64,000 nucleotides of DNA from Tubulanus polymorphus (lineage: Eukaryota; Animalia; Nemertea), in contig NC_134027.1 in assembly GCF_964204645.1 (NCBI RefSeq), positions 18,500,560 to 18,564,559 on the forward strand, in the 5' to 3' direction. Position 1 is the stretch's first letter. Each line of letters starts with the position of its first letter. Made by a program: the position numbers and the translations under genes. Below the pieces are notes generated by a model. The model ran no database searches. It had not been told where the DNA came from and saw only the letters and a list, made by a program, of their open reading frames with translations. Shown here one piece after another: positions 41,571 to 60,535 of this stretch.

Positions 41571-41683
41571 TTATAACCTGAAAGTGGCCATGTTTGTTTC
41601 TGCTGTTTCGCGTAAATCCCGCTCGGAGTGGGGCCAATACGTCGAGAAATCACTGCATACTCCAGGGGCGGTTCTAGGTTGCC

Positions 41684-41946
41684 TTTAAAATTCAAATTAT
41701 TGATATCTTAGAATAAATATTTAGTTATAATATAAAATACACACGGTTACGAAAATATATTATAGTTTTAAATTACTTTTAATGTTTTGTTTTTTAATGA
41801 GCTCGACCGTTCGACCTTTGGCTTGAAAGCCCATTACCCCTATTACTGACACCAGGCGGTTTGGTCATGTTGGTAAGTTGTACCATGTTGACAGAGAAAT
41901 AGAGAGTATGCGCTAGCCATACGACTGGTCGGTGTAGGAACGTCTA
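41684..41946 (-). repeat. 263-bp inverted duplicate of 42486-42748 (host flank + TSD + first 164 bp of the Polinton TIR)
   Basis: Reverse-complement match including the junction ATTACT|GACACC; one mismatch noticed. Confidence 0.95.
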
Positions 41947-42179: not shown

Positions 42180-42584
42180 TCTTAATATGCCCCAGCGCCG
42201 TAGCGCTGTCGCAAAAATGATTTCATTCAGTAGGAGTACAGGGGCGGACCCAGAGGGCAAACTTGATTGCCTTCTTAGATTTAATAGGGCATATTATTGT
42301 AATCATAAGAGAAATTGTCTGCACTTGTATCAGCGAGCCACGCAGCGGCGACGCCCAATTCCATCGGTAAACCACCACTTTGTTTTTGAAAGCATGCCAG
42401 AGGCAATCATTTTTTTCTCAGAGTTTAAAAAAAAATCATATACTTTGATAGTTGAAGGGCATTTAAAAATGTTGACTGCCTACAATAGACGTTCCTACAC
42501 CGACCAGTCGTATGGCTAGCGCATACTCTCTATTTCTCTGTCAACATGGTACAACTTACCAACATGACCAAACCGCCTGGTGTC

Positions 42585-43474
42585 AGTAATAGGGGTAATG
42601 GGCTTTCAAGCCAAAGGTCGAACGGTCGAGCTCATTAAAAAACAAAACATTAAAAGTAATTTAAAACTATAATATATTTTCATAACCGTGTGTATTTTAT
42701 ATTATAACTAAATATTTATTCTAAGATATCAATAATTTGAATTTTAAATGCATATTGTATTAAATCAATTGGTCGCTCCGCTCCGCGACCGCTCCGCTCC
42801 GCGACCAATTGATTTATTTACAATACACAAATTCATATAATCAAATATATTTTAATAATAATTATTATTCTATTATTCAACTGAAATACACACGGTTATG
42901 AAAATATATTATAGTTTTAAATTACTTTTAATATTTGTTTTTAATGAACTCGACCATTCAACCTTTAACCTGAAAGCCCATTACCCCTATTACTCTTAAA
43001 ATAATCATATAAATGAATAACATTTAAATTGACAGATTATTCAATATAAAAGTATATATTTACAACATTATTTCAATATTCATATTTGTGTGAGTTAGAT
43101 TTTTAAACATTAAAAGTGTTAGTAAAGTGTGATTGAAATAATACATGATATAAATCATTGAACTTCTAAAATCAATTTTAAAAAAAAAATTATTTAGTAT
43201 TAAAATGGAAGCAAGTAAGTACTACTGTCCAACATGTAATATCAATATAGATAAATCCCAAAAAGCAAGACACAATAAAACTAAAACACATTTAGAGAAT
43301 AAATTGAAATTAGAATATGAAGATGATATATTAGAAACTAAATTAGATGAATTAAAGAATTAAAAAGAAACATACAAATGTGATACATGTAATCAATCAT
43401 TCAGTGATAAAAGATATTATAAAGAACATTTAAAATCTAAAAGTCATATTAGAAATATGAATAATGATATTTTA
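42585..43474 (+). repeat. Left TIR (~890 bp)
   Basis: Reverse complement of 59652-60535 with a handful of substitutions and indels. Confidence 0.95.
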
Positions 43475-43559
43475 AGGAATGAAAAAGGATGACGTTAGTC
43501 GAAGAAATGGAAGAGGATTCTAAAATGTTAATCAATTTTAATAAAAATATATATTATAA

Positions 43560-44342
43560 ATGGAGGAACAATCACAAGCTATAAATATAAACAATAATGG
43601 TGTAATAAATATATGCTATAAGAAATGTAATAAGTGTGAATTGAATAAATCATTAACAGAATTTCAAAAAAATAAAACTAAAAAAGATGGCAAACAAACA
43701 TATTGCAAAAGCTGTACTACACTATACAATAACAAATTTCTTGAAAATAATCCAAATTATTCAACACAATATTATATGGATAATATTGAAAAATTCAAAG
43801 TTAGAAATAAACAATGGAGAGAAAATCACTCAGATTATATAACAGAATATATGAGAGAATGGAGGGATAATAATGGAGAATATTATAAAGCGTATCAAAA
43901 TAATTATAAGAAAGAAAGATATCAAACAGATTTTAATTACAAATTGAAAAAATGTTTAAGATCTAAAGTATCAAAATTATTCAGTAAAGAAAACCACTCA
44001 GTTACACTAGCACATTTATTGGATTGTTCAGATAAATTTTTCAAATCATGGATAATATATCAATTCGATGATAAACTGAATATAAATAATTATGGCAATT
44101 ATTTTCATATTGATCATGTGTTACCAATATCTAAATTTGACATGAATGATGAATATGATAAAAAGTTAATTTGGAATTGGAAAAACCTGAGACCTCTTGA
44201 AAAGAAGGAAAATATGATTAAACATGACAAACTAGATTTACAGTTATATTTAGAACAGTTAATAAAAGTAAAGAAATTCATTGAATTATGGAACAATAAT
44301 CCAAATAATGAACAATATGTTGAATCTTTATTGAGTGGTTAA
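43560..44342 (+). CDS. HNH endonuclease with N-terminal CxxC..CxxC zinc ribbon, 260 aa, intact
   Basis: KCNKC..EF.KN..KDG..YCKSC; HIDHVLPIS...WNWKNLRPLEKKENMIK. Confidence 0.85.
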   Translation: MEEQSQAININNNGVINICYKKCNKCELNKSLTEFQKNKTKKDGKQTYCKSCTTLYNNKFLENNPNYSTQYYMDNIEKFKVRNKQWRENHSDYITEYMREWRDNNGEYYKAYQNNYKKERYQTDFNYKLKKCLRSKVSKLFSKENHSVTLAHLLDCSDKFFKSWIIYQFDDKLNINNYGNYFHIDHVLPISKFDMNDEYDKKLIWNWKNLRPLEKKENMIKHDKLDLQLYLEQLIKVKKFIELWNNNPNNEQYVESLLSG

Positions 44343-44601
44343 AGATTAATATATCTCAAATAAAATATAATGAAAATTACATACCTTCAACTAGCCATTA
44401 TTTCTATTTTAATTTTTAATATTTTCTTTTACAATTCTTTTCAAAAGAGAATAATTTATATCACAAATAAAAAATACTAAAAAAAACAATAACTAATACT
44501 AAAATTCTTTACCTTTAACTAAGCTAGTATGAATCTAAAGAGATACTGGTATCATTTTATAATACTTATAATATTTTTCTTATTAAATTTCTCTAATATA
44601 A

Positions 44602-45204
44602 ATGTCAAAGAAATCTAATAAGAATAGTATTGATATTGAAAAAACATTAGATGATTTGGGTATAAGTGATAATAAAGATACAGTTGTAACTAATTGTGCT
44701 CAAGTTAATTGTAATATAGATTATGAATACTATTTATATTGTAAGCATCATCTAGAACTATTGATTGCCGGTGGAAAAACTAAAGAGTTTTTAAATAGAA
44801 TTATTACTTTTCAAGAATTAGATGCTATGAAACCCGATAAAGTAATAAAATATTTTAAGATTTATGAAGAGGCAAGATTGGCCCGAATAAATGATTCTAT
44901 TTCAGATGGTATTGTCAAATGTTATTCTAAGTTATGTAACCAGTTAATACCAATTGATGATGAAAATAAATTATATAGTGATTTGAAAAATGACTATTTA
45001 GTTATGACTGAATTACAAAAATGGGTTGGATATGCTTCATTTCAATTAGGATCGGTTATGACATTAATTTCTACTGGCGTCATAACATTTTCGAACATCA
45101 AACCTATGGAATATAAATCAGGTAAGAACGAAACAGATGTACTACAACCAAACAGTGAAACAGAAAATGAATCAGAACAAAAATTAACTAAAATAAATGA
45201 GTGA
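44602..45204 (+). CDS. Polinton hypothetical protein, 200 aa, hydrophobic segment near the C-terminus
   Basis: Intact ORF; TAAATG start; GYASFQLGSVMTLISTGVITF. Confidence 0.8.
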   Translation: MSKKSNKNSIDIEKTLDDLGISDNKDTVVTNCAQVNCNIDYEYYLYCKHHLELLIAGGKTKEFLNRIITFQELDAMKPDKVIKYFKIYEEARLARINDSISDGIVKCYSKLCNQLIPIDDENKLYSDLKNDYLVMTELQKWVGYASFQLGSVMTLISTGVITFSNIKPMEYKSGKNETDVLQPNSETENESEQKLTKINE

Positions 45205-45557
45205 TGGAGTTAAGAAAAAGGCTAGATCCGAGAAACAAATTAAATGGGCAAGAGAATTAGGTAAAAGATCTTCAGAATTAAAAAAAAGCTAAGAAAAAGA
45301 AATTAACTGATATAAATGAATCACCTGATATTGATTCAAATAATAATCCATCTAATTCTTCTAATGCTGGAAGTAATTATAAATTATATATTACAATTGG
45401 ATTAGTAACAGTTATTATATTATCCGGTGTAATATATAAATCAAAATTCAAATCTGATGATAAAGATGATTCCAATGACAATAAACCTATCATACCAGAA
45501 AATAAGTCAAATCATAAAGTCATTGAAACTAAATCTAAATTATTATTAATGGATTAA
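45197..45557 (+). pseudogene. Small basic membrane protein (~119 aa), +1 frameshift in an A-run at ~45280; missed by the ORF track
   Basis: MSDGVKKKARSEKQIKWARELGKRSSELKK/AKKKKLTD...YKLYITIGLVTVIILSGVIYKSK...LLLMD*; TAAATG start; fills the gap between neighbouring genes. Confidence 0.75.
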
Positions 45558-45563
45558 AAGAAG

Positions 45564-46682
45564 ATGAAAAAAGAACAATATTTAAGAGATTTATATTATA
45601 ACCCAGAAAGTGAAGTATCATATTCTAACGTTTCAGAATTATGGAATAAAATTAAATCTGATAATGAAAATGGTGCCGTACGGCACCCACACGGTGATAT
45701 AAAATATAGTGAATTGAAATCATGGTTACAAAATCAACCAACATATCAAATCCACAAGAAAATGGATAAAACTTATTTAACAAGAAAAGTTATGGTTTCA
45801 TATATTGATCAACAATGGCAAGCAGATTTAATTGACATGAAGAACTTAGAGGAATACAACAAAGGATATTTCTGGATACTGAATGTTATAGACATATTCA
45901 GTAGATACGCATGGTCAGTAGATACGCAATCAAAAATAAAACTGGTATAGAAGTAACAAATGCTTTTAAAAATATATTTGAAGAAGCTATTCCAGTTAAG
46001 ATACAATTTGATGAAGGTAAGGAATTTTATAACAAACATTTTAAAAAACTATTATCTGATAACGATGTAGATTATTTTTCAACACACTCAGATAAAAAAA
46101 GCATCTATTATAGAAAGATTTAATGAAACATTGAAAACTAGAATGTGGAAATATTTTACTGCTAATGAAACATATAAATATTTCGATGTATTAGATGATT
46201 TAGTGAAAGGTTATAATAATTCTAAACATAGTTCTATAAATATGAAACCTATACAAGCTAGAAAAGAAGATAATTCAGAAATAGTATGGAATAATTTATA
46301 TGGAGCGTTTGTTACACATGATTTCGGTGAACCTAAATTTAAAATAGGACAACACGTAAGAATATCTAAATATAGAAAAACCTTTTATAAAGGTTATACT
46401 CCAAATTTTACTGAAGAAATATTCAAGATTAAAAAGATAATATTAACTAAACCATTTGTTTATAAACTAGAAGATCTAAAAGATGAAGAAATATTAGGTT
46501 ATTTCTATGAACAAGAATTATCACTTGTACCAAATCCAGATGAAATAGAATACAAAATAGAAAAAGTATTGAAAACAAAAACTCTTAAAGGAAAAAAGTA
46601 TTCTTTGGTGAAATATAAAGGATATGATGATAAATTTAATGAATGGATTTTATCTAGTAAAATTAAAAAAATAAATGAATAA
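45564..46682 (+). pseudogene. Retroviral-like (RVE) integrase with C-terminal chromodomain; two frameshifts (~45920, ~46100)
   Basis: QQWQADLIDM, VIDIFSRYAW, IQFDEGKEF, ASIIERFN (DDE triad); YKIEKVLK..LVKYKGYDDKFNEWI. Confidence 0.95.
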
Positions 46683-47286
46683 AGATTTATTTATATTTGA
46701 ACCTCATAATATGTTAGTTACTGGAGTAACCAATTGTGGTAAAACACATTTCATATTAGATTTGTTAGAAACTATTTATAAGAATCATTTTGATAATATA
46801 ATATTATTCTGCCCCACTTATGAAATGAATAAAACATGTAATAGAGACATAGTTAAGATGAAAAAGTTTATTAAATTAGATCCTAAAACAGTAAAAGAAA
46901 ATTTAGATAATTGTATAAAAATAGCAATTGATACTTATAAAGGATCAAATACATTATTCATTGTAGATGATTGCGCAAATTTACATGATTCAAAAGTTAG
47001 AGAAAGTGAGTTATGTTATCTAGCTTTCTCTGGAAGACATTTCGGGATAACAACATGGGTTTTAAATCAAAAATATAATTCAATTGTTAAAGACTTTAGG
47101 GAGAATATAAGATTTCTAGTTTTATTGCACAATAAAGATAGAAAATCTATGCAACAATCATTGGAAGAAAATCAAATTATACCAACTGAATTACATGATG
47201 AATATATGAATAAATTAAAGAATAATAAAGGTTCAAAATTATTACTGAGACTACAATTTCCCTATGAATATAAATTTATAAAATAA
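46675..47286 (+). CDS. A32/FtsK-like genome-packaging ATPase, 203 aa, intact
   Basis: Walker A GVTNCGKT, Walker B FIVDD, SGRH motif, downstream LNQ..FREN. Confidence 0.93.
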   Translation: MNKDLFIFEPHNMLVTGVTNCGKTHFILDLLETIYKNHFDNIILFCPTYEMNKTCNRDIVKMKKFIKLDPKTVKENLDNCIKIAIDTYKGSNTLFIVDDCANLHDSKVRESELCYLAFSGRHFGITTWVLNQKYNSIVKDFRENIRFLVLLHNKDRKSMQQSLEENQIIPTELHDEYMNKLKNNKGSKLLLRLQFPYEYKFIK

Positions 47287-47310
47287 AATTTATAATTTGG
47301 AATATTATAG

Positions 47311-47678
47311 AAACTAATTTATATATCTATGTACTAGACGTACGAGTAAGAAAGTAAGATTCTTGCCAAGAAAGTAAGAATCTTGGTAAGAATTCTTACG
47401 TACGTCTAGTATATAGATATATAAATTAGTTTTATAATAATTATTCTAAATTTAAATTATGAAAATGAATAAATTATATGTTTTTTCTTAATAATAATAA
47501 AAATAGATTATATAATAACTATTTCTATACTTAGATTGATAATTTTATGTTTTTAATTTTTATGAAAACTATTATATATATATATATATATATCTATGTA
47601 CTAGACGTACGAGTAAGAAAGTAAGATTTTTTTGGATTCTTGGATTCTTGGATTCTTACTCGTACGTCTAGTATATAG
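47311..47678. terminator. Two related long hairpins between the convergent gene blocks (47311-47432, 47594-47678); putative terminators
   Basis: 34-bp and 26-bp stems, each with one G-T mismatch, sharing the core CTATGTACTAGACGTACG/CGTACGTCTAGTATATAG; function inferred from position. Confidence 0.5.
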
Positions 47679-47702
47679 TTATTTAAATTAGTTTTATAAT
47701 AA

Positions 47703-48911
47703 TTATTCTAATTTTGTTTCTAATACATTTATAAAATCATCTCTGTTTATATCTAATTCACCAAAACTCTTAGGTAGATTTATTAATTTTAATTGAGCCA
47801 TCTTAACATAATTATTAGTAGGTAAATTAGCTTTTTCTCTTAATTTTTCTAAGTATTCATCAAAATCAGCATAATCAAAATCAAAATGATGTCCAAAATT
47901 ATTTATCAGATAACTTAAATCTATTTTTCTTAAATACAATAATTTATATATTTGTTTAGGATTATCTTCTGCATAAGCTAATAATTTATCAAATAACAAC
48001 TTATAGAATATATAATATTGGTTAGTTTTAGGATTAAAATATTTGATATATTTATTTTGGTTATTTAACAATGGTATCATACTCACCATTTTATAAACAT
48101 TAATTAGATGTAACTTTGATTTATAATGAGTATTTTCATCAACAGGTTCAATTTTCTTATTACAATATTGGCACATTTTATTTCTTTCTATTTCTTCTAA
48201 TTTCTTTTCATGTTCTTCTAACTTCCTTTCATTTTCGATATGCGCTTGAGATTTTTTATGTTTAGAAAAATTACTTTTAGAAATATCTAAATCACAAATG
48301 TTACAATGTTTTTTAGAATCATCAATTTTTTCATTATCATTAGTTTCAATTGTATCAACATTATCTGTTATATTATCTATGGTATCATTTGTTTCAATTG
48401 TATTAACATTATCTATGATATTATCTATTATATTATTATCAGATATATTATTATCATTATTTTTCTTTTCTTTTTCTATATGTTTATTTGATTTCTTATG
48501 TGATGCCCAATTTCTATATGATATATATTTCTTACATACATCACAATATTTTTCATTTGTCTTTTTGGTTTTGATATCAGGTTCAATCTTATCATTATTA
48601 GATGTAGTAGGTATTACATTATTAGATGTAGAAGGTATTACATTATTAGATGTAGAAGGTATTACATTATTAGATGTAGTAGGTATTACATTATTAGATG
48701 TAGTAGGTATTACATTATTATCAATTACATTACTTAAATTATCAACAACACCACTTTTATTATTATTGATTTCTATTAGTTTAGTTTTATAAATTTTGAA
48801 AATAGGATCAAATATCAAAGCTATATTACAAGGTATTACATAATATAAACCATCATTATTTTCATGTGTATCGATGTATGGAATATGTTTATATACTTTA
48901 CCTCCTTCCAT
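47703..48911 (-). CDS. Protein with three matrin/U1-type C2H2 zinc fingers and a 5x NNVIP(T/S)TS repeat, 402 aa
   Basis: YCDVCKKY..SHKKSNKH, HCNICDLD..KHKKSQAH, MCQYCNKK..THYKSKLH; 24-bp tandem repeat at ~48595-48735. Confidence 0.85.
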   Translation of the reverse strand: MEGGKVYKHIPYIDTHENNDGLYYVIPCNIALIFDPIFKIYKTKLIEINNNKSGVVDNLSNVIDNNVIPTTSNNVIPTTSNNVIPSTSNNVIPSTSNNVIPTTSNNDKIEPDIKTKKTNEKYCDVCKKYISYRNWASHKKSNKHIEKEKKNNDNNISDNNIIDNIIDNVNTIETNDTIDNITDNVDTIETNDNEKIDDSKKHCNICDLDISKSNFSKHKKSQAHIENERKLEEHEKKLEEIERNKMCQYCNKKIEPVDENTHYKSKLHLINVYKMVSMIPLLNNQNKYIKYFNPKTNQYYIFYKLLFDKLLAYAEDNPKQIYKLLYLRKIDLSYLINNFGHHFDFDYADFDEYLEKLREKANLPTNNYVKMAQLKLINLPKSFGELDINRDDFINVLETKLE

Positions 48912-48941
48912 TTATTATATAAATTTTTATTATAGTTAAAA

Positions 48942-50189
48942 TTAATACATAACACTATTTAATTGAGAATTTACAATATATAATTGCGCGTCAGATATAA
49001 TATAAATGTGCATTTTAAAATTTTTGATTCCTTTATTCTTTGTCATGAATAATTGTATTCCATCTTTAGTGTTTTGTAATTTTTTTCCAGAACCGTGTAA
49101 TGAATTATCCTCTGTTGTTCTAAAATCTAACCATAATGCATATTTATTACCGGTATAATAATCAATTTGATTAATATTACAATTTTCAGATGATTTTACT
49201 TTTTCATTCATAAAATGTTTTCTAATTTCTGGCCATTGATCAATCATTCTCATTCCTTGACAAAATATTTTATTTGCTATTCCTTCGATAGTTATTTCTA
49301 CTTTTGTTATTTCAGGATTATAATAATTATCAACATTTATTGCGCCATTAGTATATGTTGCAATGGTAAAAAATATTAATATACCTTTAATAGATCTTCT
49401 TGGGAAGTTAATATTCTCATTAATTATTTCATCATTTGCATTAATAGTTACGGTTTTAAATTTATCAATATAATCATATAATAATGAAAATCCTTGATTG
49501 TATTTAGTTTGAATTATACTTGAAATATTTTCATCAGTTACTGTATCATATTCTAAACATATATTCGATAATTTATAACTCATATCTTTATTAACGCTAG
49601 ATATTACAATTTCATTAACAGGAGCAAATGTTATTTCGAATATAACGTCTTCTTGAATTGCGTATTTATATAAAGGTGCATTGTTATTTATCAATTCAAA
49701 GTCTAATGGAATTTTATATTTGCTTCCATATATACTTTTTATCAATTTATCTACAGCATTAGTTAATATTGCATTATGTGCTTCTGATCTTAATTCATTT
49801 TGGTTTTCTGATTGGATACCTTGAAATATCATATTATTTCTGTTTTCTTTAGTTAACCATAAATCTTTATAATGCATAAATAAATTATAATCATCTAATG
49901 AGAAAACTGTTTCTGGACCAATCTTTATTGTTAATTTTTTAATCAAATATCTTCCAACATTATCAACAACATAATTATTATTATTACCGGTTACTTTTAT
50001 ATCGGCTGATAAATAAATACTATTTGGAACATAAAAAGTATTTTGTGTTAATCGAGGAATTCTAACATATAAAGTTTCATCGGGATTAATATTAGAAGGG
50101 TTATGAGTAATTATATGATGTGATCTTTCTGCTTTGATAGCATTAGATATTCTATGATTCTTAGAAGGATTGATATAACTCCCACTCAT
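48942..50189 (-). CDS. Putative double jelly-roll major capsid protein, 415 aa, intact
   Basis: Size, beta-strand-rich pattern (LYVRIP..FYVPNSIYLSADIKV, LIKKLTIKIG, YKIPLDF, LSNICLEYD, YALWLDFRT..HGSG) and position in the structural block; fold not computed. Confidence 0.8.
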   Translation of the reverse strand: MSGSYINPSKNHRISNAIKAERSHHIITHNPSNINPDETLYVRIPRLTQNTFYVPNSIYLSADIKVTGNNNNYVVDNVGRYLIKKLTIKIGPETVFSLDDYNLFMHYKDLWLTKENRNNMIFQGIQSENQNELRSEAHNAILTNAVDKLIKSIYGSKYKIPLDFELINNNAPLYKYAIQEDVIFEITFAPVNEIVISSVNKDMSYKLSNICLEYDTVTDENISSIIQTKYNQGFSLLYDYIDKFKTVTINANDEIINENINFPRRSIKGILIFFTIATYTNGAINVDNYYNPEITKVEITIEGIANKIFCQGMRMIDQWPEIRKHFMNEKVKSSENCNINQIDYYTGNKYALWLDFRTTEDNSLHGSGKKLQNTKDGIQLFMTKNKGIKNFKMHIYIISDAQLYIVNSQLNSVMY

Positions 50190-50209
50190 TTATTTAACAA
50201 AAAAATTAA

Positions 50210-51867
50210 TTATTTATTTTTTATCATGTTTACTAACCCAAAAATAATTGCACTTACAACTGTAATTAAAAATAAAATAATATGTTCAGCAGCAAACTTA
50301 ATAATGTTTCCTGCAGATTTCAATATAAAACCAACAATTGATGCAATAAATCCTGGCAATGCACAGATTTTTTAGATAGTTCCCATAAATATTTTGCTAA
50401 TTTCTTTAAACCATCCTTAACTTTATCTTGTATAGAATTATTATCTGGGGGTTTATCTGGTTTATTTGGAGTAGGAGTAGATTTCAAAGCATTTGATATT
50501 GCTAAACCTATTGTTGTAAATAACATAGTTACAGCTGTTAGAATTGAAAGAATTGTTATTCCTTCTAACTTAAATAATAATCTTATTCTATCTTTTAGTG
50601 ATATGTCAGAATTTGTTTTTATCAACAAATCTTTAAAAACAACTTTTAATTTTTTAATATGATTAAGATCATATGATTTTAATAATGTATCTCTTTCTTT
50701 TTTCTGTAATTCTTTGTTATATTTTAAATCATCTATTTCTTTTTCTAAAGCTAACTTTCTGCTTTCATAATCAGCTTCCTCTATTACTTGAAGATTTTTA
50801 TTTAATTCTAATTGTTTTAATTCTTCATTTGCATTAGCTAATTCTTTTTCTAACATGGTTATTTTAGAAAATCTCATCTTAATATTAGCAATTTCACCAG
50901 CTGATATTTGTACCCCTTTAATTTCTCTACGTGCTTTTTCAGGAAATTGTTTTAATTCTTCATCAGTTAAATCAAGTAATCCTTTTTCTAGTAAAGATTG
51001 TATTCGATTTATTCCAGTACTATTCATCTCTTCTTCTGAATCTCTTAATCTATCAATTTGTTTTTCTAATACTAATTGTAATTGACTTGAATCATTATCA
51101 ATTGGTTGAGTGTCTCTTCTCGATGTTTCGGGTGTTGAAGATCTTAATTTATCTAATCGATCTCTATGATCTTCCATTTCTGGATCAACATCATTAGGAT
51201 TTAAATTTGGATTTTTAAATGGTGAATATTTGTTAATATCAAATTTAGGAATTGGTTCTTCTTCATCTATTCTATCGAGTGCATTCCATATAATTCTGAG
51301 AAATTCTGTGCCACCTTTTGAATGTTCAATTGAAGATCTTGCTAACATTTTAGGTTCAAAAATATTTTCTTGACCAATTCTAGATAATTGTATTGATACA
51401 GTTTTGTTATTTAATTCAACATTATAATACCATGAATCATTTTTGAATTCTAAATTATTCATGAAAAATGGGTCATCATTTATAATTTGTTTTACAATTT
51501 CTTCTGAACCAATTTCATCTATTACATCTTTTGATATTAATTCGTTAACAATTGTATATATTACTCTATTTTTCATTAATTTTAATTGAGATTTCATAAG
51601 AGGATCAGTTGTATTTACTAATCTTTTCATTAAATCCTTTCTAGATGTTGCGGTTCTAATAACTAACCTTTCGGAAGCTGTCATATATTCTTTAAATTCT
51701 TTACGCGTTTCATAATCATAATCATCATCTTCACCTAAATTAGAATTACGTCCTGGCTCATTACCATCATCAAAACTTGTTTCACTAAAATCAGGTGGTT
51801 GTTCATCAGTTATGCCAGGTTCATCTAAAGTATCCATTGGAAAATCTTCTCCACCTTTTACATCCAT
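50210..51867 (-). pseudogene. Large acidic/coiled-coil protein with C-terminal membrane segments (~552 aa); frameshift at ~50365
   Basis: ORF 50320-51867 continues in another frame as ALPGFIASIVGFILKSAGNIIKFAAEHIILFLITVVSAIIFGLVNMIKNK*; also GITILSILTAVTMLFTTIGLAI. Confidence 0.8.
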
Positions 51868-51882
51868 TTACATAACAAAAAA

Positions 51883-53208
51883 TTAAAATTTGAAATATAA
51901 TATTCGTCCGATTACAATTCCTATACAAGTTAAAGCTAATTTAGCATTTTCATGGGACTTATTATCATCATTTAGTTTAATTATATCATGTTGAATAATA
52001 TCAGTTTTTATATTTTCTGTAGTATTGTAATCTTTTATTTTAGAATCATTATTTAATTCAATATTATTAGTTTTAGTTTCAGTTGATTGAATGTGTTTTT
52101 TATTTTTTTCGCCTTCCATTAATTTTGGAGCAGTAATAATCTTTTTATTTATATCATTCAATCCAAATGAATTATTTATTGTTGCGGTTTTAATTAGATT
52201 ATTATAACCAATTATGTTTCCCATCTTTAATACTAAATCATTAAAAATAATTAATAGATTAGGGCCTATACAATAATTTAATCTAATATGTGATTTATCT
52301 AAATAATTTTGATATCTTACAATGTTCTCCGGAATCGATCTATTTTTATCATTATGAATGGAATCTTCAAATAATACTTTAAATTGTTTCTGCGCATCGA
52401 ATGAAGTGTTATCATTTCCAATTATTGGGGATCTTGTTTCAACTTGCGCACCTAAAATACATATCAGATAAGTTCTAATAGATTGATTTATTCTTTGTAT
52501 ACCAGCTTTAGTAAAACCTTCACTATTTTCTAAAATAAAATAAACCCAACCATTATTGTTTTGTTGTTGTATATTATTATAATATTTTGGTAATTCATTC
52601 CAATTTAGTGTTCTTATATCTGAATTTGTCATTATTTTTCCAAATTCTTTAGTATATAATATTCCTAATCCACCCATTGTTCCAATTTTTGCTCTAAAAT
52701 CTTTATTTGAATTAATATTAAATTCATTACATATTTTATAAAACTTAGAAAAATTAATATTATTATTCAATTCTTTAAAATATTTTGAACCTGGTAAAGG
52801 ACATTCTAATTCATGTAATATAAATTTTATTTAAAAATATGTATGAAATCTAAAAAGTGATAACATCAATGGTAAACTTGGTTTGTTTAAATGATCATTC
52901 CAACTAATTCCACAACCTGTTGTTGCACAATAAACAGCAAAATTTAATTGGTTCTGCCAATACTTCATATTAGATTTTAATAACCATTGTTTTGCCTCAT
53001 TTAAATTTTTGAAATTAATTGTATACACATGAAATATATTTTCCATCTTTACATGAAAATTATTACTTTCAGTAACATAAATATATAAATCAATTAATGA
53101 ATTTAAAACTTCATTTCTATATGTAATATCTTTATTAAAATGTATTGCTGGAATACTATATTTAATTGATTTATTATATTGGAAAGCTTTTGGAAAACTA
53201 TCTGCCAT
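51883..53208 (-). pseudogene. Polinton hypothetical protein (~441 aa) with C-terminal TM anchor; in-frame premature TAA at 52831-52833
   Basis: ORFs 52831-53208 and 51883-52770 are in the same frame and bridged by 20 open codons; ends LALTCIGIVIGRILYFKF. Confidence 0.8.
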
Positions 53209-53224
53209 TTATATAATTAAAAAA

Positions 53225-53658
53225 TTAATAATTAACTAATTCTTTTAATAATTTATCTTGTTCTTCAACTGTTATATGACCATTTAAACTTATTATATAA
53301 TCTAGTGTATTCTTCAATTTATTAATTTCTTTTATATTAGTTTTAATTTTTCTTTATTACTTTTTATATTTAATTTTGAACTTATACCAGTTAAAACACT
53401 TGAACTTAATCCTAATACACCAATTGATATAGCTAAAGGTGTTAATGGACTGAATATTGCTAGAAATGTTATTACAGAACTAATTGTAACCGAACCACTT
53501 ATAATCAAATAATATATAATTTTACTTTTTAAATATTTTTTCTTTTTTATCTTTAAGTCACTTTCAAATTCTAATATTTGTTTTTCTAAATATATTTTTA
53601 ATTTAGTTTTATTTATATCATGAGGAATAATATCAATATTATCAACTTTATCTTCCAT
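53225..53658 (-). pseudogene. Two-TM small membrane protein with coiled-coil flanks; frameshift at ~53340
   Basis: IIYYLIISGSVTISSVITFLAIFSPLTPLAISIGVLGLSSSVLTGI; continues in another frame as NIKEINKLKNTLDYIISLNGHITVEEQDKLLKELVNY*. Confidence 0.75.
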
Positions 53659-53681
53659 TTATTTAGCAAAAAAAAAAATTA

Positions 53682-54104
53682 CTAATTAGTAAATTTATAT
53701 GCTACAAATATAACAATAACTGTTCCACCTAAAATCCAAATTATTTCATATTTCTGTTGTTCTTTACTTGGGGTATAATAATCTGATAAATTAGGTTTGT
53801 ATAGATGTAATTTTTCTTTATTGGTTACCGCGTTATATAAACTCATTGCATCATCAACTGATTGAAAATCTCTATGTGAAATCTTCTGATCATATAATTC
53901 CTTGTTAATATAATCCATATAGTTTTGTCTCTTTTCTCTATATTCTTCAGCTTGTTTATTATATTTCTCTAATGCTAAGTTATGTCTTTTCTGTTCTGTT
54001 AATGATCCATTTTTATCAATATGTTTAAATAAATAACCACCACCAGTAAATGCTAAAGCGTTAACAATTGCCGATCCTATGATAGTTATAACTGCAGAAG
54101 CCAT
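53682..54104 (-). CDS. Small membrane protein, 140 aa (hydrophobic N-terminus, coiled coil, C-terminal TM)
   Basis: MASAVITIIGSAIVNALAFTGGGYLF ... IIWILGGTVIVIFVAYKF. Confidence 0.85.
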   Translation of the reverse strand: MASAVITIIGSAIVNALAFTGGGYLFKHIDKNGSLTEQKRHNLALEKYNKQAEEYREKRQNYMDYINKELYDQKISHRDFQSVDDAMSLYNAVTNKEKLHLYKPNLSDYYTPSKEQQKYEIIWILGGTVIVIFVAYKFTN

Positions 54105-54128
54105 TTATTTAGTAAAATAATTATGCAT

Positions 54129-54350
54129 TTATATGGGAGGAATATATTTTTGTTTTTCTAAATAATCAATAGTTAAATTAGATAAAGTAACTGCTAACGT
54201 TAATTTTAAAATATCATTTATATCAAATCTATCAACATTAACACTTCCCATTTTAAATACTTTTTTTAATACCATTGAATAACCAACAGTTCCAACAGAT
54301 AGTAATGCTCCATTATATAATCCAGTTATTATCCACTTATTATCACTCAT
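54129..54350 (-). CDS. Small hydrophobic protein, 73 aa
   Basis: Intact ORF; TAAATG start overlapping the upstream stop; two hydrophobic stretches. Confidence 0.8.
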   Translation of the reverse strand: MSDNKWIITGLYNGALLSVGTVGYSMVLKKVFKMGSVNVDRFDINDILKLTLAVTLSNLTIDYLEKQKYIPPI

Positions 54351-54707
54351 TTATTTATCAAAAAAATTACTATCATCAAAATATTTAGTTATCTTATTTA
54401 TGATTAATTCAACATTTATTTCATTACTAGTTTCATTTGTATATATTTCAATTATTATTTTTTTAATATCATCGATGATCAAATCTTCATCTAATTCATA
54501 AAATCTTAAAGATTCTCTAATTAAATTAGTAATCTTTTCTACATTTAAAGTTTCTTTATCTATTGTTGTTTCATACTCAAATGTTGTTTCATTAGAAAAT
54601 GTAATATTTTTGATATGTGTAATTACATCATTAATGTTAAATTTCATTTCTTTCTCATGTTTAAAATCAAACCCAAAACATATACTCGGTTCAACAGTTA
54701 TATTCAT
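54351..54707 (-). CDS. Acidic hypothetical protein, 118 aa
   Basis: Intact ORF in the gene array; TAAATG start. Confidence 0.75.
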   Translation of the reverse strand: MNITVEPSICFGFDFKHEKEMKFNINDVITHIKNITFSNETTFEYETTIDKETLNVEKITNLIRESLRFYELDEDLIIDDIKKIIIEIYTNETSNEINVELIINKITKYFDDSNFFDK

Positions 54708-54723
54708 TTATATAATGAAAAAA

Positions 54724-55481
54724 TTACTCTTTACATCTTATAACTAATTCATAAATTACAGGAAAGTTATTCAAATCAATTAAATATCCATTATGATTTC
54801 TTATTTCTGATTTAAAATTATTAAATTAAGGAATGCAAGGTTTAAAATCACATTCTGTTAAATTATAATTTATTTGAGTTCCAAATTGTTTAACATTTTT
54901 TAGCGGTAAAATATTTAGTATACTAGAACTACAAATTGTTTCTTTAGTTGCTTCGAAAGTTTTTGTAGGCTCGATTAAATTGCAATAAATATAAAAGTGT
55001 GTAAAAGGTATTATATTTGAATTACCATCTATGTTTCCTGTAACAGTATCTGGTGCAATTCCTAGCAATTTAGCTAATGGTTTTTTACCATAAATGCATG
55101 TTGACTTTCATCATACACCTTTCTTTTAATTTTATTTGTGCTATAACTTTTTATAAATCTAATTAAAAATTTATCATCTCTTCTAATTTTCAACCGTGCT
55201 ATTCGGTTAATTTCTTGAGCTAATGTTTCTAAATTATATAATCCTGGTTTTAAAATTATATGAAACCATTTATCTACATTTCCAATATGAATTAAAAAAG
55301 TATTATCTTCAATAGTTTTATCCGTTATATTAAAAAAAGAATTACATAAACTTATATTAACTAATTTTAAATCTACACAATTCTTAAATTCTCTATCTAA
55401 TTGAACTAGTAAATTATGAGATTTATAATTAGTAAGTTTTCTTGAATCAACAAATATTCTGTATTCTTTTAATTCCGCCAT
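54724..55481 (-). pseudogene. Putative minor capsid (penton, single jelly-roll) protein; frameshift near 55080-55130 and stop at 54826
   Basis: IFVDSR..NSFFNIT..LKPGLYN..LAKLLGI..FYIYCNLI..ILNILPL..IRNHNGYLIDLNNFPVIYELVI, a typical PLV/virophage penton pattern. Confidence 0.75.
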
Positions 55482-55498
55482 TTATTTTACATATTTTC

Positions 55499-55852
55499 TT
55501 ATTCGAAATCTATTTCATGGTGCCCCTTTTCATTCTTACCTTTGTATACGAAATAGAAATCACCAGAACATAATTCTTCTAGATCTTGACTTGATAATCT
55601 ATGAAATCTATCCGGTAAATATGTTCTGAATTTATATGTATTTCCTTTTAATCCTTCATATTCTAAGTGTATAACTAATTTATCTCCATATTTGTTAGTA
55701 ACTCTATCAATATTTGTAATTAGATATTTCTTATGGATTATTAATTCTTTTAACTTCTTAAATTTATAATCTACTGATTTGACATTTGAAGTATCTTTTA
55801 TTCTATCTAGAAATAATTTGTTGTTCTCACTGTGTGCTTGTTTACTCTCCAT
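55499..55852 (-). CDS. Small protein downstream of pPolB, possibly an OB-fold ssDNA-binding protein, 117 aa
   Basis: KKLKEL..KYLI..V.NKYGDKLVIHL..FRTYLPDRF beta pattern and acidic tail; function inferred. Confidence 0.55.
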   Translation of the reverse strand: MESKQAHSENNKLFLDRIKDTSNVKSVDYKFKKLKELIIHKKYLITNIDRVTNKYGDKLVIHLEYEGLKGNTYKFRTYLPDRFHRLSSQDLEELCSGDFYFVYKGKNEKGHHEIDFE

Positions 55853-55881
55853 TTTAATAACATATTTTTATTAAAATTTGA

Positions 55882-58800
55882 TTAACACGTTAGGTTTCTT
55901 TTCATTATCTCGTTCTCTTTTGTTTCTTCTCTTTTAAATTTTAAGTATTCATCTAAATTACAACCATAAGCAACTGTATGAATTCCATCATCTAAAATAT
56001 ATCTTTTATCATCAAATGGGTTTAGACTTATCTTTTCAATTTCTTCAATAAACATTTCATGATCTTCAGATCTTAAACATCTCATCTTATGTTTTCTAAC
56101 TTCTTCATTGAATATACAATTGATGTAATCTTTGAAATGAATATTCTTTTCTACTACACTTTTAGTTATTCCTTTTAACTTTTTAGCTTCATGTTCTTTA
56201 GTTTTATATGAATACATTTTAGATCTAATACCGATGAATTCAATCATTTCTTCACCACCTAATTCATCTTTGAATTTACCGGGAACTTTTTTATTATCAT
56301 TGCTAAACAATTCATGATCTTTAGGATAATTACTGAAATCAAAATGATGTTTTAATGTTTTTAAATCATCAGTTATGTTATCAGTTTTTATCTTTAATAT
56401 GTAACTGTCAGTATCAAAATATAATATTTCTATATGTTTTTCTCCAAAAAGTGGTTGTAATACATTATAATAGAATTCATACATTAGTAATTTTGATAAT
56501 TCTAAAACTGAAGCGCCAACATAGATTGGTTTATTAAATTTCATTGATGTTCTTCACATTTTAACTGCAGCTAAATTTTCATCAAATATTCTGTTACCAA
56601 TGAACTTAGGATATGTTTGTAAATGTCTAATTCTTTTACCATTACTAACTAACTCAATATCATTTCTATTTCTAATATTTTCACAAGTCTTACCATAGAA
56701 TGCATTATTCATTAACTTAAAGAAATCTTTTTCGAAATCAGTTTTAGCTTCAGTTCACTGTTTGGTGTTAAAATCTATATATTTTTCTAACCACTTAGAT
56801 TGGCTGAATGAAATATATCTATGTACTTTTTTTAGAATCATTCCTTGATTCAAATAAAACTTTAACATTCTATAATGTACTACATAATTATATTTATCTT
56901 CTTGAGTTACCATTAACTTTTCTGTATGAATATGATTTTCGGGTTTAATTCTCTTTTGGTAATTTGATAATTCTTCATGTGTTACAGTTTTATGTTCGGG
57001 GCAGTATACTAGATTTCTAGATTTAAATTTTTTATCTTCAGGATATTCTAAATCTACAACAAAGAAGTAACCAGTATCTGAATCATCTGCAATATCTAGA
57101 ATTCTTTTCTTCCAATCAAATTTATCATTATTTTCATTCTGTAAAACTTCAGTTAATTCAAATACTCCATAAGGTTGTGGTTCCATCATTGCCCAACCAT
57201 ACAAATTATTTGCATCTATATATAATAACTTATATCCAGGGTTATCATTTACATTGAAATATCTATCACCTAATACACCTGAAACTCCTCCTCTTATAGA
57301 TTTTTCAAATAATAGTAATTGATCTATATTTGTTAACAAATCCATTTTTATATCTGTAAATTTTAATCCACAATCCCATGTTAAACCTGGTGATGAATAA
57401 CAATGACAAGGATCAATGTTAAAATATTCTAGGTTTACATCTCTAAACCTTTCGAATATATCGGTTAATAATAATACATCTGATTTTAGATATGAATCTA
57501 CTAATTGTCCATGATTTTTCATTCCAAAATGATTCCAAATATTCAATGTTCTATTATATACTTCATCTTTAACATATTCATTTTTTAATTCATGATAGAA
57601 TTGTTCTTTCAATAATTCAGTTATATTGAAATCATTATGTGATTTATAAAATGAATATGGAATTGCTCCTTTATATCTCATTAATTGAAAATCATCATTA
57701 TTTGGGTAGTGTTGCTTTAATATTCTTAATTCATCATCAACTAATGATTTTGATAAGTTATCTAATGAACTATTTAAAAATCTATATGAATCTATAAATC
57801 TTAGGCAACCAAATTGGAATGATATATAATTCTCAGATGTTTTAGCTAACATTCTAAATTTATAAGTTGGTATTTTATCTTTTGATCTATTTGAATTTAA
57901 TCTTTCTATTTCGTTATTAATTTCTTCTATTTTATGACATAACTGTTTGATGAATAAATGTGCATCATATCCTGATAGATTATGAAATATAACTGGTACA
58001 AAGTTAATTTTCTTAGCTTGCAAGTTACAATTCTCATGTGCGGCGCCTCTAAACTTTCCATTCAAATGATCATGGTCTCTTACTTTTCTATCTCTAAAAT
58101 TAAATATCTTTTCACAATAATAACATTTATCTGCAAACTCAAATGCTTCTTTATCTTTTTCTGTCATTATAATTTCTATATTCTTATTTAACTTTTCATT
58201 AAATCTTATTTCATATTCAATTAATAAGTCACAAAAATGATTGATAATATTTTCATTTCTATAATGATAATATTCACTTTTAATTAGTTCTGGATAATCA
58301 GATTTAATATATAACCCGAAAGCTGCAGCTGATTGATGAATCTTTTTAATAGTATTTGTTATTGGTGGTTCTTCTGAAAAATAATTTTCATTAGAATTTA
58401 ATTTCTTTCTTTTATAATATATTTCTTTTCTATCTTGATCAGTTAATTCTTTATTTAATGATTCAAAATCTCCATACATTACAAATGGTACTTTATTTTG
58501 TAATCATATTTTTTGAATTCTAATATTTTATCCTTTTCATTTGGTAAAACTAATTTACAATAATCATGATTTTCACATAATTGTTTATGATTCAGTAATT
58601 TACTTTCATTACTAATTCTATGTAAACATTTTCTACAAAGATATATTTTATGGTGATCACTTTCTGATTTAAAAAATAAATCGATTTGTTTAATCCACAT
58701 ATAATGATTCTCATAATATAGTATATCTATTACATCGTTTGAATCATAATCTTTTGATAGATATAAAGGTTCTAATGTATAATGTTTTATATTGTTACCT

Positions 58801-59921
58801 TTTGTATTTGGTAATTTGATTAAATCAAATACATTTATCTTTATATTATTATCTCTTTCTATTTTTGGGATGTTTTTAATTATTACAGGATACTTATCTA
58901 TCTTATAATTATTTTCAAATTGTTTATAATGAGTTAATCTAAAACTATGTTGTTTATAATCTTCAACTGGGTGTAAACAACTTATTATAGCCCATAGAAA
59001 ACATTTATCATCTTCATTTTGTACATTTATTACAGCATTAGTTTTAAATGGTAGTTTAATATAACTCGATGCTTCAATATCTGGTTCTTTATAATATGAT
59101 ACATTATTTTCATCAATTGGTTTTGATTTAGTTAACTTATTATATTTTGTGTTATAAACATGTAAAGTCATAAATATTATTTCATCAAATATTAAACCAG
59201 ATCCTTCAAAATATTTCTCGTCTATTTTAGTTTTTACTTCATTATAACATTTATCTAATTTATCATCTATATGTTGTTTTGAAATAATATGTTGTGAATG
59301 AGAATTTATATTATATATTGGTTTATCTTCAGATTTTATAAACTTTACTTTAGAAGATATACTTATTTTAGGATATTCAACATCTGTAATTATTTTTATT
59401 ATTTCTTTCATATTTTCTAAATGTTTTTTATTTTCTTCTAATGTTTTTCCTTTATGAAATTTAAACTCAATAGCTGCTGGGCCAATATCACTTTTAAATG
59501 CTTCGGTTATCTCTATATCTTTTTTATTATCCAATGAATTAATATATTATCTTACATCTTCCATGTATGGTCTTTTATTGTTTAATTTATTTTCTATGCT
59601 TTTAATTGTCTTCTGTTTCTTATCATTATCTTTATCAAAATAATCTTCACCTAAAATATCATTATTCATATTTCTAATATGACTTTTAGATTTTAAATGT
59701 TCTTTATAATATCTTTTATCACTGAATGATTGATTACATGTATCACATTTGTATGTTTCTTTTTCATTCTTTAATTCATCTAATTTAGTTTCTAATATAT
59801 CATCTTCATATTCTAATTTCAATTTATTCTCTAAATGTGTTTTAGTTTTATTGTGTCTTGCTTTTTGGGATTTATCTATATTGATATTACATGTTGGACA
59901 GTAGTACTTACTTGCTTCCAG
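55882..59921 (-). pseudogene. polB: Protein-primed family B DNA polymerase (N-terminal zinc fingers, OTU-like protease region, exonuclease with EndoVII insertion, polymerase); start mutated, 3 stops, 1 frameshift
   Basis: NVQNEDDKCFLWAI..ENHY; VPFVMYGDFES; CYYC..VRDHDHLNGKFRGAAHENCNL; FHNLSGYD; LYIDANNLYGWAM; KLMNNAFYGK; YFDTDS; stops at 59547, 56755 and 56554, frameshift at ~58492. Confidence 0.97.
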
Positions 59922-60535
59922 TTTAATACTAAATTTTTTTTTAAATTGATTTTAGAAGTTCAATGATTTATATATGTATTATTTCAATCACACTTTACTA
60001 ACACTTTTAATGTTTAAAAATCTAACTCACACAAATATGAATATTGAAATAATGTTGTAAATATATACTTTTATATTGAATAATCTGTCAATTTAAATGT
60101 TATTCATTTATATGATTATTTTAAGAGTAATAGGGGTAATGGGCTTTCAGGTTAAAGGTTGAATGGTCGAGTTCATTAAAAACAAATATTAAAAGTAATT
60201 TAAAACTATAATATATTTTCATAACCGTGTGTATTTCAGTTGAATAATAGAATAATTATTATTATTAAAATATATTTGATTATATGAATTTGTGTATTGT
60301 AAATAAATCAATTGGTCGCGGAGCGGAGCGGTCGCGGAGCGGAGCGACCAATTGATTTAATACAATATGCATTTAAAATTCAAATTATTGATATCTTAGA
60401 ATAAATATTTAGTTATAATATAAAATACACACGGTTATGAAAATATATTATAGTTTTAAATTACTTTTAATGTTTTGTTTTTTAATGAGCTCGACCGTTC
60501 GACCTTTGGCTTGAAAGCCCATAACCCCTATTACT
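59652..60535 (-). repeat. Right TIR (~884 bp)
   Basis: Reverse complement of 42585-43474. Confidence 0.95.

What the first reader, a model, noticed from the sequence alone, without database searches (positions are those of the whole stretch)
42585..42994. Each TIR starts with a 410-bp foldback that repeats the terminus internally
Seen: the first ~115 bp (AGTAATAGGGGTAATGGGCTTTC...CATAACCGTGTGTATTT) recur inverted at ~42884-42994, ending CCCCTATTACT. An inner stem AATCAATTGGTCGC...GCGACCAATTGATT surrounds a GC island with repeated GCTCCGCTCCGC. The same structure is at 60126-60535, so the element has four terminus sequences. The other strand reads GCGGAGC, matching the very stable GCGNAGC mini-hairpin. 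Inference: hairpin-ended replication intermediates or a second priming origin; the 410-bp unit could also move alone as a MITE.
Basis: partly seen in the sequence, partly recalled or inferred. Interest (0 to 1): 0.7.

Follow-up and report, generated by a model that had tools for sequence, protein, structure and literature searches.

The report
Strand-specific snap-back ends of a Polinton
Both ends of this virus-like jumping element (a Maverick/Polinton) carry a 410-base mirror-image segment, shared across the family's many copies, that is predicted to fold back best on one particular DNA strand and likely gives the single-stranded copying intermediate a ready-made double-stranded end from which copying would restart.

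Summary
A 17,951-bp Maverick/Polinton (pPolB, rve integrase, ATPase, double-jelly-roll capsid, 6-bp TSD, ~890-bp TIRs) begins each TIR with a 410-bp foldback that repeats the first 113 bp internally. New here: all 9 mismatched pairs in its stems are G·T on the strand whose 3' end is the element end and A·C on the other (P=0.004). That same strand carries two GCGNAGC mini-hairpins as a Y-shaped 'rabbit-ear' cap. Reads of the same species show the unit is family-wide (about 50 times flank depth), with two matched changes in both arms (unphased). They give no sign of frequent flip/flop isomers or an abundant solo MITE (at most about 16% of ends, if the table ranks by reads). Best reading: a kept single-stranded-DNA telomere structure, likely a local substitute for the 18-kb panhandle as duplex origin for protein priming (0.45). 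Rivals are parvovirus-like self-priming (0.2) and end-capping or repair only (0.17). The function is untested. I found no printed description for a pPolB Polinton; one unchecked scan note reports a similar module in another genome. New variant of a known kind.

The parts
42585..60535 (.). Maverick/Polinton element, 17,951 bp, about 22% GC against about 36% in the flanks, termini 5'-AG...CT-3'
42579..42584 (+). 6-bp target-site duplication, left copy (GGTGTC)
60536..60541 (+). 6-bp target-site duplication, right copy (GGTGTC)
42585..43474 (+). left TIR (890 bp); 4 substitutions and 3 small indels against the right TIR
59652..60535 (-). right TIR (884 bp)
42585..42697 (-). outer arm (true terminus) of the left foldback; the minus strand has its 3' end here
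42884..42994 (-). inner inverted copy of the terminus; pairs flush with the 3'-terminal base; all 7 substitutions are G·T on the minus strand
42750..42828 (-). inner stem (42750-42776 with 42801-42828), with 2 G·T pairs on the minus strand, closing the Y-shaped cap
42780..42786 (-). mini-hairpin ear 1, GCGGAGC in this copy; the GCGAAGC loop in 1014 of 1047 reads; its closing pair is G·T in 652 of 1034 reads
42791..42797 (-). mini-hairpin ear 2, GCGGAGC
60126..60535 (+). right foldback unit (inner terminus 60126-60236, ears 60323-60329 and 60334-60340, outer arm 60423-60535); the plus strand (3'-terminal here) folds better, -127.5 against -116.0 kcal/mol
41680..41946 (-). inverted duplication of the left junction in the host flank: 99 bp of flank plus 168 bp of TIR, ending at the base of the inner stem; fifth terminus copy
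55882..59951 (-). protein-primed DNA polymerase gene, in several ORF pieces in this copy; DNA_pol_B_2 E 1.2e-9, EndoVII-like domain E 2e-5, N-terminal zinc fingers starting inside the TIR
45558..46682 (+). retroviral-type integrase with chromodomain, in 3 ORF pieces (rve E 0.004 and 0.006, below the curated cut-off)
46675..47286 (+). packaging ATPase (Pox_A32, E 5.5e-12)
48942..50189 (-). [quoted passage not shown]
43560..44342 (+). 260-aa ORF with an HNH-like motif (motif recalled; no Pfam hit)

Best explanation
Each end of this Polinton carries an internal inverted copy of its terminal 113 bp and a GC cap, which are predicted to fold as single-stranded DNA on the strand that ends in the 3'-OH, and which likely rebuild a short double-stranded terminus where the terminal-protein/pPolB would start second-strand synthesis without needing the 18-kb panhandle. 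Steps: (1) Shown: the architecture, the G·T polarity (9 of 9), GCGNAGC loops on the same strand, a family-wide distribution and one dominant orientation. (2) Established for protein-primed replicons: strand displacement releases a full-length single strand, and panhandles are the popular but unproven route to re-initiation (PMC11886824). (3) Inferred: the 3' end anneals 300 nt away, flush with the inner copy, under a Y-shaped mini-hairpin cap; the 5' end forms the weaker A·C version, which an oncoming polymerase would open more easily. (4) Inferred: protein priming on the folded 3' end displaces the inner copy and gives a normal monomer, so no nickase is needed and no flip arises; the outer/inner differences at positions 25-64 would keep the inner copy from acting as an integrase end. 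(5) Speculative by-product: if a polymerase extends the free 3'-OH instead, the result is a hairpin-closed or palindromic derivative.
For: All 7 outer-arm substitutions and both inner-stem non-Watson-Crick pairs are G·T on the 3'-terminal strand (binomial P=0.016 and 0.004), and the 3'-terminal strand folds 11-13 kcal/mol better at each end. The family's variant spectrum over this 1.2 kb shows no strand bias that could make this by mutation alone: 47 against 39 places, P=0.45. The internal palindromes between the gene blocks have their G·T pairs on the plus strand, so the polarity belongs to each structure. GCGNAGC is a DNA-specific fold: Tm 73 C for N=G and 76 C for N=A; only GNA loops of 64 tested form it; r(GCGAAAGC) melts at 39 C (PMC13037366 passages). 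It lies only on the G·T strand. Family-wide in run X6: core depth about 1,115-1,130, inner arm 1,050-1,325, TIR interior 1,025-1,530, flank 17-38. 539 reads join 43003-43029 to 43119-43161, so copies with different downstream indels keep the inner terminus. Contigs of 2 other studies match it too. Two matched changes occur in partner positions: 42600 G>A (776 of 2573) with 42979 C>T (510 of 1532), and a 1-base insertion in the A-run at 42663-6 (197 of 1674) with one in its partner T-run at 42915-8 (113 of 1055). Common single-arm variants at 42610 and 42693 also give G·T on the minus strand, and 42609 restores a pair. One orientation: 1,666 loose-ended reads lie before 42584/42585, and no row lies behind 42994 among the six shown (smallest 320).
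Against: No experiment shows folding or priming. The perfect TIR duplex (-478 kcal/mol for 410 bp) is far more stable than both foldbacks together (about -245), so the fold can only be a kinetic or protein-held state. The matched arm changes are unphased, and reads can cross-map between 92%-identical arms. Some common variants do not fit: 42662 T>A (516 of 1626) gives A·A unless its partner also changes (no partner row among the 40 shown), 42749 T>A (818 of 960) hits the base of the inner stem, and 42780 G>A (652 of 1034) weakens one ear. With RNA parameters the same strand also folds better (-214 against -180), so G·T polarity alone does not separate DNA from RNA. The variant-spectrum control is not polarised in time. 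No relative with an intact end was found outside this species (0 of 6 loci reach a terminus), so conservation across species is untested here.
Confidence: 0.45

Rival explanations
1. Parvovirus-like self-priming: the flush 3'-OH is extended by pPolB or a host polymerase to give a hairpin-closed duplex, which is then resolved asymmetrically (by an element nuclease, or by protein priming at the embedded terminus of a head-to-head dimer).
For: The 3'-terminal base pairs with 42994 and leaves the rest of the element as template. The Y-shaped cap resembles parvovirus 'rabbit ears' (PMC4513846 passage). The element has an EndoVII-like domain and an HNH-like ORF. Terminal palindromes were proposed to prime replication in Halocafeteria virophages/PLVs. 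Unchecked scan notes report giant palindromic Maverick derivatives.
Against: Rolling hairpin replication gives flip and flop ends (PMC11575299). Here both TIRs share one orientation, and flipped ends are at most about 16% if the table ranks by reads. No Rep/NS1 family hit in the ORFs scanned, and HUH-like motifs occur only outside the coding frames. The element already has a protein-primed polymerase. Endonuclease domains in pPolBs are commonly read as intein relics (PMC11161782). Single-orientation resolution at the left end of autonomous parvoviruses is recalled and keeps this rival alive.
Confidence: 0.2
2. Telomere cap and repair template only: the fold hides the free 3' end from exonucleases and damage sensors, and lets a nibbled end be rebuilt from the inner copy; replication still starts at duplex ends or the panhandle.
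For: The first 24 nt of the arms are identical and the arms appear to change together, as repeated copying between arms would give. Mini-hairpins resist nucleases. Streptomyces 3' overhangs fold Palindrome I onto IV over G·A-closed hairpins.
Against: Repair by copying should erase the outer/inner differences, yet outer-type ends appear to stay outside across many insertions. A cap needs far less than 111 bp.
Confidence: 0.17
3. The structure acts in RNA or in transcription (outward read-through transcripts forming long hairpins, or a promoter/terminator element) rather than in DNA replication.
For: G·U pairs would fall on the outward strand, and that strand folds better as RNA too. Genes start inside or just after both TIRs.
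Against: The GNA tri-loop motif is a DNA fold, and the RNA analogue is far weaker. The repeated sequence is exactly the replication/integration terminus, flush to the last base. A 111-bp RNA duplex would invite silencing (inference).
Confidence: 0.08
4. The unit is, or is the source of, an independently mobile 410-bp MITE moved by the Polinton integrase.
For: It has two correctly facing AG...CT ends.
Against: Depth over the core equals depth over the TIR interior, and no loose-end row behind 42994 is among the best supported. There is no solo unit in the 64-kb window; the fifth terminus is a junction duplication that includes the TSD and flank.
Confidence: 0.05
5. Neutral relic: an old template-switch duplication of the end, carried along and homogenised between TIRs without function.
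For: The middle parts of the loop are variable, and such inverted duplications do happen here (41680-41946).
Against: 9 of 9 G·T polarity, a symmetrical cap of DNA mini-hairpins on the same strand, and matched changes in both arms.
Confidence: 0.05

Closest known systems
Polintons/Mavericks (Polintoviricetes; adintoviruses) - PMC8097293, PMC10748475, PMC11161782, PMC8502044 (passages)
   Same: pPolB, rve integrase, packaging ATPase, double-jelly-roll capsid, TIRs within the 46-1,500-bp range, 6-bp TSD, AG...CT ends, about 18 kb.
   Different: The passages searched describe no internal terminus copy or hairpin in the TIRs ('hairpin' and 'palindrom' occur 0 times in PMC8097293 and PMC10748475; 'hairpin' 0 times in PMC8502044). 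The end is AGTAAT, not the vertebrate (AGT)2. No Ulp1/adenain protease was found.
Terminal palindromes of Halocafeteria seosinensis virophages and PLV subtype 4 (bioRxiv 10.64898/2026.07.28.741278, passages)
   Same: Palindromes within the TIRs next to the TSD, proposed to fold and prime replication.
   Different: Those are about 52 nt (subtype 5) and are preferentially in elements without pPolB. This one is 410 nt, branched and strand-polarised, and sits in a pPolB element.
Streptomyces archetypal telomeres (Tap/Tpg; PMC4513846, passages)
   Same: A protein-primed linear replicon whose 3' single strand folds its terminal sequence onto an internal complement, over two hairpins closed by sheared G·A pairs.
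   Different: There the pairing is 13 nt, the overhang comes from an internal origin and dedicated Tap/Tpg proteins act. Here it is 111 bp, in an integrating eukaryotic virus-like element, with no Tap homologue seen.
Parvovirus/AAV terminal hairpins (PMC11575299, passages)
   Same: A Y/T-shaped terminal foldback whose 3' end pairs flush and could prime synthesis.
   Different: No Rep/NS1 nickase, no frequent flip/flop, a dsDNA element with a protein-primed polymerase, and a much longer hairpin.
GCGNAGC mini-hairpins in the phage G4 origin, RSF1010 ssiA and N4 vRNAP promoters (PMC13037366, passages)
   Same: The same 7-nt DNA motif (GCGGAGC is the N4 promoter loop), on a strand that is single-stranded in use.
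   Different: Those are prokaryotic primase or polymerase sites. Here two ears cap a long terminal stem in a eukaryotic element.
Casposon TIRs (PMC4046053, passages)
   Same: Self-synthesising elements, some with internal palindromes in their TIRs.
   Different: Unrelated by descent and Cas1-integrated. The palindromes are shown only in a supplementary figure that I did not see.

Membership tests
Polinton/Maverick | [quoted passage not shown] | tested here: met
   DNA_pol_B_2 E 1.2e-9, above the curated cut-off, in one ORF piece; the gene is in pieces in this copy
Polinton/Maverick | retroviral-type (rve) integrase | tested here: met
   Two adjacent pieces hit consecutive parts of rve (profile 6-45, E 0.004; 43-93, E 0.006; each below cut-off), followed by a chromodomain; a 6-bp TSD is present
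Polinton/Maverick | packaging ATPase and double-jelly-roll capsid protein | tested here: met
   Pox_A32 E 5.5e-12; the capsid model matches PBCV-1, iridovirus and mavirus capsids
Polinton/Maverick | long TIRs, AG...CT termini, 6-bp TSD | tested here: met
Polinton/Maverick | Ulp1/adenain maturation protease (typical, not part of the name-giving definition) | tested here: inconclusive
   No Pfam hit in the 18 and 12 ORF pieces scanned (one piece in both) and no motif in a coding frame; a broken or divergent gene could be missed
Parvovirus-type rolling-hairpin replicon | terminal hairpin with flush 3' end | tested here: met
   Predicted only: the 3' base pairs with 42994
Parvovirus-type rolling-hairpin replicon | flip and flop end isomers | tested here: not met
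   Both TIRs have the same orientation; no flipped-end row among the best supported (bound about 16%; 382 loose-end rows and 51 joint rows not shown)
Parvovirus-type rolling-hairpin replicon | Rep/NS1 HUH nickase | tested here: not met
   No Pfam hit; HUH-like motifs only outside the coding frames
MITE | two correctly facing transposon ends around a short non-coding core | tested here: met
MITE | many solo copies, each with its own TSD | tested here: not met
   No depth excess over the core and no best-supported loose ends behind 42994; none in the window. Rare solo copies are not excluded, as no genome is held
Streptomyces-type folded 3' telomere | terminal sequence pairs with an internal complement over hairpins with GNA loops, on the 3' strand | tested here: met
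   In form only, by prediction
Streptomyces-type folded 3' telomere | Tap/Tpg end-patching proteins and overhangs left by an internal origin | not tested
   No directed search was made; the Pfam scans showed no such family
GCGNAGC mini-hairpin DNA | GCGNAGC motif on the folding strand | tested here: met
GCGNAGC mini-hairpin DNA | measured high melting point and nuclease resistance in this context | not testable with these tools
   Needs oligonucleotide melting and probing

The most novel reading that the evidence does not exclude
A class of pPolB Polintons replicates through a single-stranded intermediate whose 3' end folds into a parvovirus/Streptomyces-like rabbit-ear telomere. This local duplex end replaces the textbook 15-20-kb racket/panhandle for re-initiation. 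It might also form within an ordinary lagging-strand gap to mark the end for excision, and accidental extension of its 3'-OH would explain giant palindromic Maverick derivatives.
Probability: 0.3. Interest if true: 0.8.

Novelty: new variant of a known kind. Interest (0 to 1): 0.55.

Why it matters
How Polintons copy and excise themselves rests on an untested model, a single-stranded racket held by TIRs 15-20 kb apart, and direct evidence for panhandles is lacking even for PRD1 and adenovirus (PMC11886824). A strand-polarised terminal fold names which strand is single-stranded and what its end looks like, and it can be tested with plain oligonucleotides and with long reads. It would also be a convergence with parvovirus and Streptomyces telomeres in an integrating eukaryotic element.

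Tried and rejected
No whole genome is held, so the search for solo units with TSDs could not be run. IMG/VR gave nothing for the capsid, the core 19-mer, a pPolB piece or the capsid alignment. Metagenome loci L001-L004 (72-76% capsid identity) and L005-L006 (34-36%): 0 of 6 reach a terminus or hold a GCGNAGC motif. No RNA holder listed. Run X5 holds a share of only 0.06; when laid it gave one 136-bp piece over 42938-43073 with 4 differences, and I draw no habitat from it. Read data come from one lay-on only, whose tables are cut to the best-supported rows, so phasing of arm variants and an exact count of flipped or solo ends stay open. The PDB sequence search with the capsid alignment gave 0 hits; the fold search was needed. 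Rejected: assembly artefact (reads and contigs of 3 studies cover the unit); one-off rearrangement; strand-biased deamination as the cause of the G·T polarity (47 against 39 places; also, by inference, the 5'-end TIR is single-stranded longest and should show it instead). Kapitonov and Jurka 2006 and Krupovic and Koonin 2015 were not held under the ids tried; what I say of the racket model comes second-hand from PMC4046053 and the Halocafeteria preprint. Scan look-ups by sequence and by place found nothing.

Full report
Observation. The sequence is as described. Positions 42585-42697 recur inverted at 42884-42994, with 7 substitutions and two 1-nt bulges. A 16-bp perfect inner stem (42761-42776/42801-42816) encloses the GC island. 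The right-hand unit, 60126-60535, differs at 2 of 410 bases. The terminal 19-mer occurs 5 times in the window against 0.02 expected. Both strands fold far better than shuffles (z -26.9 and -21.0).

Context. The unit opens the ~890-bp TIRs of a 17,951-bp AT-rich element flanked by a GGTGTC duplication. The element encodes a protein-primed polymerase, an rve integrase with chromodomain, an A32-type ATPase and a double-jelly-roll capsid protein (model pLDDT 84, Foldseek E 4e-16). It is a Maverick/Polinton. Polymerase and integrase are in pieces in this copy. No protease was found. The host is an unidentified eukaryote, probably an animal (inference).

The fold is strand-specific. In the outer stem all 7 substitutions are A·C on the plus strand and G·T on the minus strand at the left end; the 2 non-Watson-Crick pairs in the extended inner stem are the same (P=0.004 for 9 of 9 under a coin-flip model). 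The minus strand is the one whose 3' end is the left terminus. At the right end the same holds for the plus strand (-130.5 against -117.6 and -127.5 against -116.0 kcal/mol). Only 2 of the 7 lie in CpG. Among the variant places of run X6 over this 1.2 kb, changes that would give G·T on the plus strand (47) and on the minus strand (39) are balanced (P=0.45), so a strand-biased mutation process is not evident. Two palindromes in the element's middle have their G·T pairs on the plus strand.

The cap. On the same strand the layout is stem - 3 nt - GCGGAGC - 4 nt - GCGGAGC - 3 nt - stem: a symmetrical Y with two ears. The two further overlapping GCGGAGC matches share bases with the stem. The motif is absent from the 16-kb interior, and 0 of 20,000 shuffles of the unit held four. 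GCGNAGC is a DNA-specific mini-hairpin with Tm 70-76 C; of 64 loops tested only GNA forms it, so the complementary strand cannot (PMC13037366, passages). ViennaRNA does not model this bonus, so the true strand difference is probably larger than computed (inference). In the reads, 42783 is T in 1014 of 1047, giving the most stable loop (GAA) in one ear, and 42787 is T in 915 of 1041. The perfect 16-nt tandem duplication seen here is therefore a private feature of this copy. Against a rigid reading, 42780 is A in 652 of 1034 reads, which turns that ear's closing pair into G·T.

Family-wide, not one-off. Raw reads of the same species label (X6, 12% of the run read) cover the flank at 17-38 times and the unit at 1,000-1,300 times, so there are about 50 TIR copies per flank copy. 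1,666 reads run from the terminus into diverse flanks (agreement 0.35). Core, inner arm and TIR interior have similar depth. 539 reads join 43003-43029 to 43119-43161, which shows that copies with other indels just inside still carry the inner terminus. Contigs of two other studies overlap it too. Two changes appear in partner positions at matching frequency: 42600 G>A 30% with 42979 C>T 33%, and a one-base insertion in the A-run at 42663-6 (12%) with one in the partner T-run at 42915-8 (11%). These are unphased, and cross-mapping between arms is not excluded. Of the other arm variants shown, 42610 and 42693 give G·T on the minus strand, 42609 restores a pair and 42662 gives a mismatch unless its partner changes too. 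40 variant rows were shown and 116 were not.

Flip/flop and MITE. Flipped insertions or solo units would both give reads that run from 42994 into host DNA. No such row is among the six shown for X6 (smallest 320 reads; 382 rows over all runs not shown), and no strand-changing joint is among 15 shown (51 not shown). If rows are ranked by reads, such ends are at most about 16% of termini. A 50:50 flip/flop and an abundant MITE are therefore not supported; rare events are not excluded. The fifth terminus in the window (41680-41946) is an inverted duplication of the left junction that includes 99 bp of flank. It stops at the base of the inner stem, which is suggestive of a polymerase stalling there but is a single post-hoc case.

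Mechanism. Protein-primed replication displaces a full-length single strand. Re-initiation on it is usually drawn as a TIR panhandle, for which direct evidence is lacking (PMC11886824, passages); the same model is assumed for Polintons (PMC4046053; PMC4061559). Here the 3'-terminal base is predicted to pair flush with 42994, giving a 111-bp duplex end 300 nt away instead of 18 kb away. Two uses are geometrically possible: protein priming on the folded end, which yields a normal monomer in one orientation without a nickase, or extension of the 3'-OH, which yields a hairpin-closed duplex that needs resolving. The single orientation, the outer/inner differences and the lack of a Rep-type gene favour the first (0.45 against 0.2). 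A pure cap or repair role gets 0.17. That the unit is a selected single-stranded DNA structure of the 3' strand, in any of these three roles, I put at about 0.8. The full TIR duplex is much more stable than the two foldbacks (-478 against about -245 kcal/mol), so the fold must be kinetic or protein-held.

Comparison and novelty. The element is a member of the Polinton class. The end works like parvovirus and Streptomyces 3' telomeres in form, but it is a member of neither (see the membership tests). Six searches aimed at Polinton TIR structure turned up no description of an internal terminus copy in a pPolB Polinton. The nearest is the 52-nt terminal palindromes of Halocafeteria virophages/PLVs, mostly without pPolB. 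I saw passages only (find mode) of 10.64898/2026.07.28.741278, PMC8097293, PMC6431247, PMC13037366, PMC4513846, PMC11575299, PMC4046053, PMC4061559, PMC8502044, PMC11161782, PMC10748475 and PMC11886824, and no supplements. The founding Polinton papers and Repbase were not available, and these or the unseen supplements (casposon TIR figure, vertebrate Maverick alignments, the preprint's tables) may already note such structures. An unchecked note of this scan (e1-1168279) reports a 0.6-0.7-kb snap-back module with arms changing together in another genome's Polinton, which suggests recurrence but is not evidence.

Verdict. Real, family-wide and probably functional; a new variant of a known kind; function inferred, not shown. 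Interest 0.55.

Noticed in passing
window 41680-41946: Inverted duplication (267 bp, 2 differences) of the element's left junction, 539 bp upstream; it includes the TSD and 99 bp of flank and ends at the base of the inner stem.
   Followed up: partly
window 47285-47460 and 47555-47700; L002 3760-3822, L003 3120-3178, L004 3183-3255, L001 9082-9359: Long palindromes at or near the point where the two gene blocks converge, with G·T pairs on the plus strand in the window (3 and 2, against 0 on the minus strand). Palindromes of unrelated sequence lie at a comparable place in relatives; possibly transcript 3'-end hairpins like those of mimivirus (recalled).
   Followed up: partly
window 43205-43474 and 59652-59920: The inner third of the TIR is coding: a zinc-finger N-terminus (zf_UBZ/C2H2 hits) lies upstream of both the polymerase at the right end and the HNH-like ORF at the left end.
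   Followed up: partly
window 43004-43160: A segment just inside the inner terminus is absent or replaced in many other copies (skips of 115-157 bp, 539 reads). At 43474/43475 and 43538 many reads diverge, so TIR length and the adjoining gene vary in the family.
   Followed up: no
window 42641: 446 reads share only the first ~57 bp of the terminus and then diverge (agreement 0.76): a related subfamily with a different TIR.
   Followed up: no
window 37948-39359: A separate foldback-type repeat: inverted arms made of 43-bp tandem units around a 50-bp array of about 15 copies.
   Followed up: no
window 34773-40785: Near-identical segmental duplications (spacings about 1.6 and 4.6 kb) just upstream of the insertion.
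   Followed up: no
window 12191-19276: A dispersed array of ~154-160-bp diverged repeats (6-8 copies).
   Followed up: no
L005, L006: Polinton-type capsid genes (34-36% identity) on short contigs filed in two bacterial MAGs; probably mis-binned eukaryotic viral DNA.
   Followed up: no
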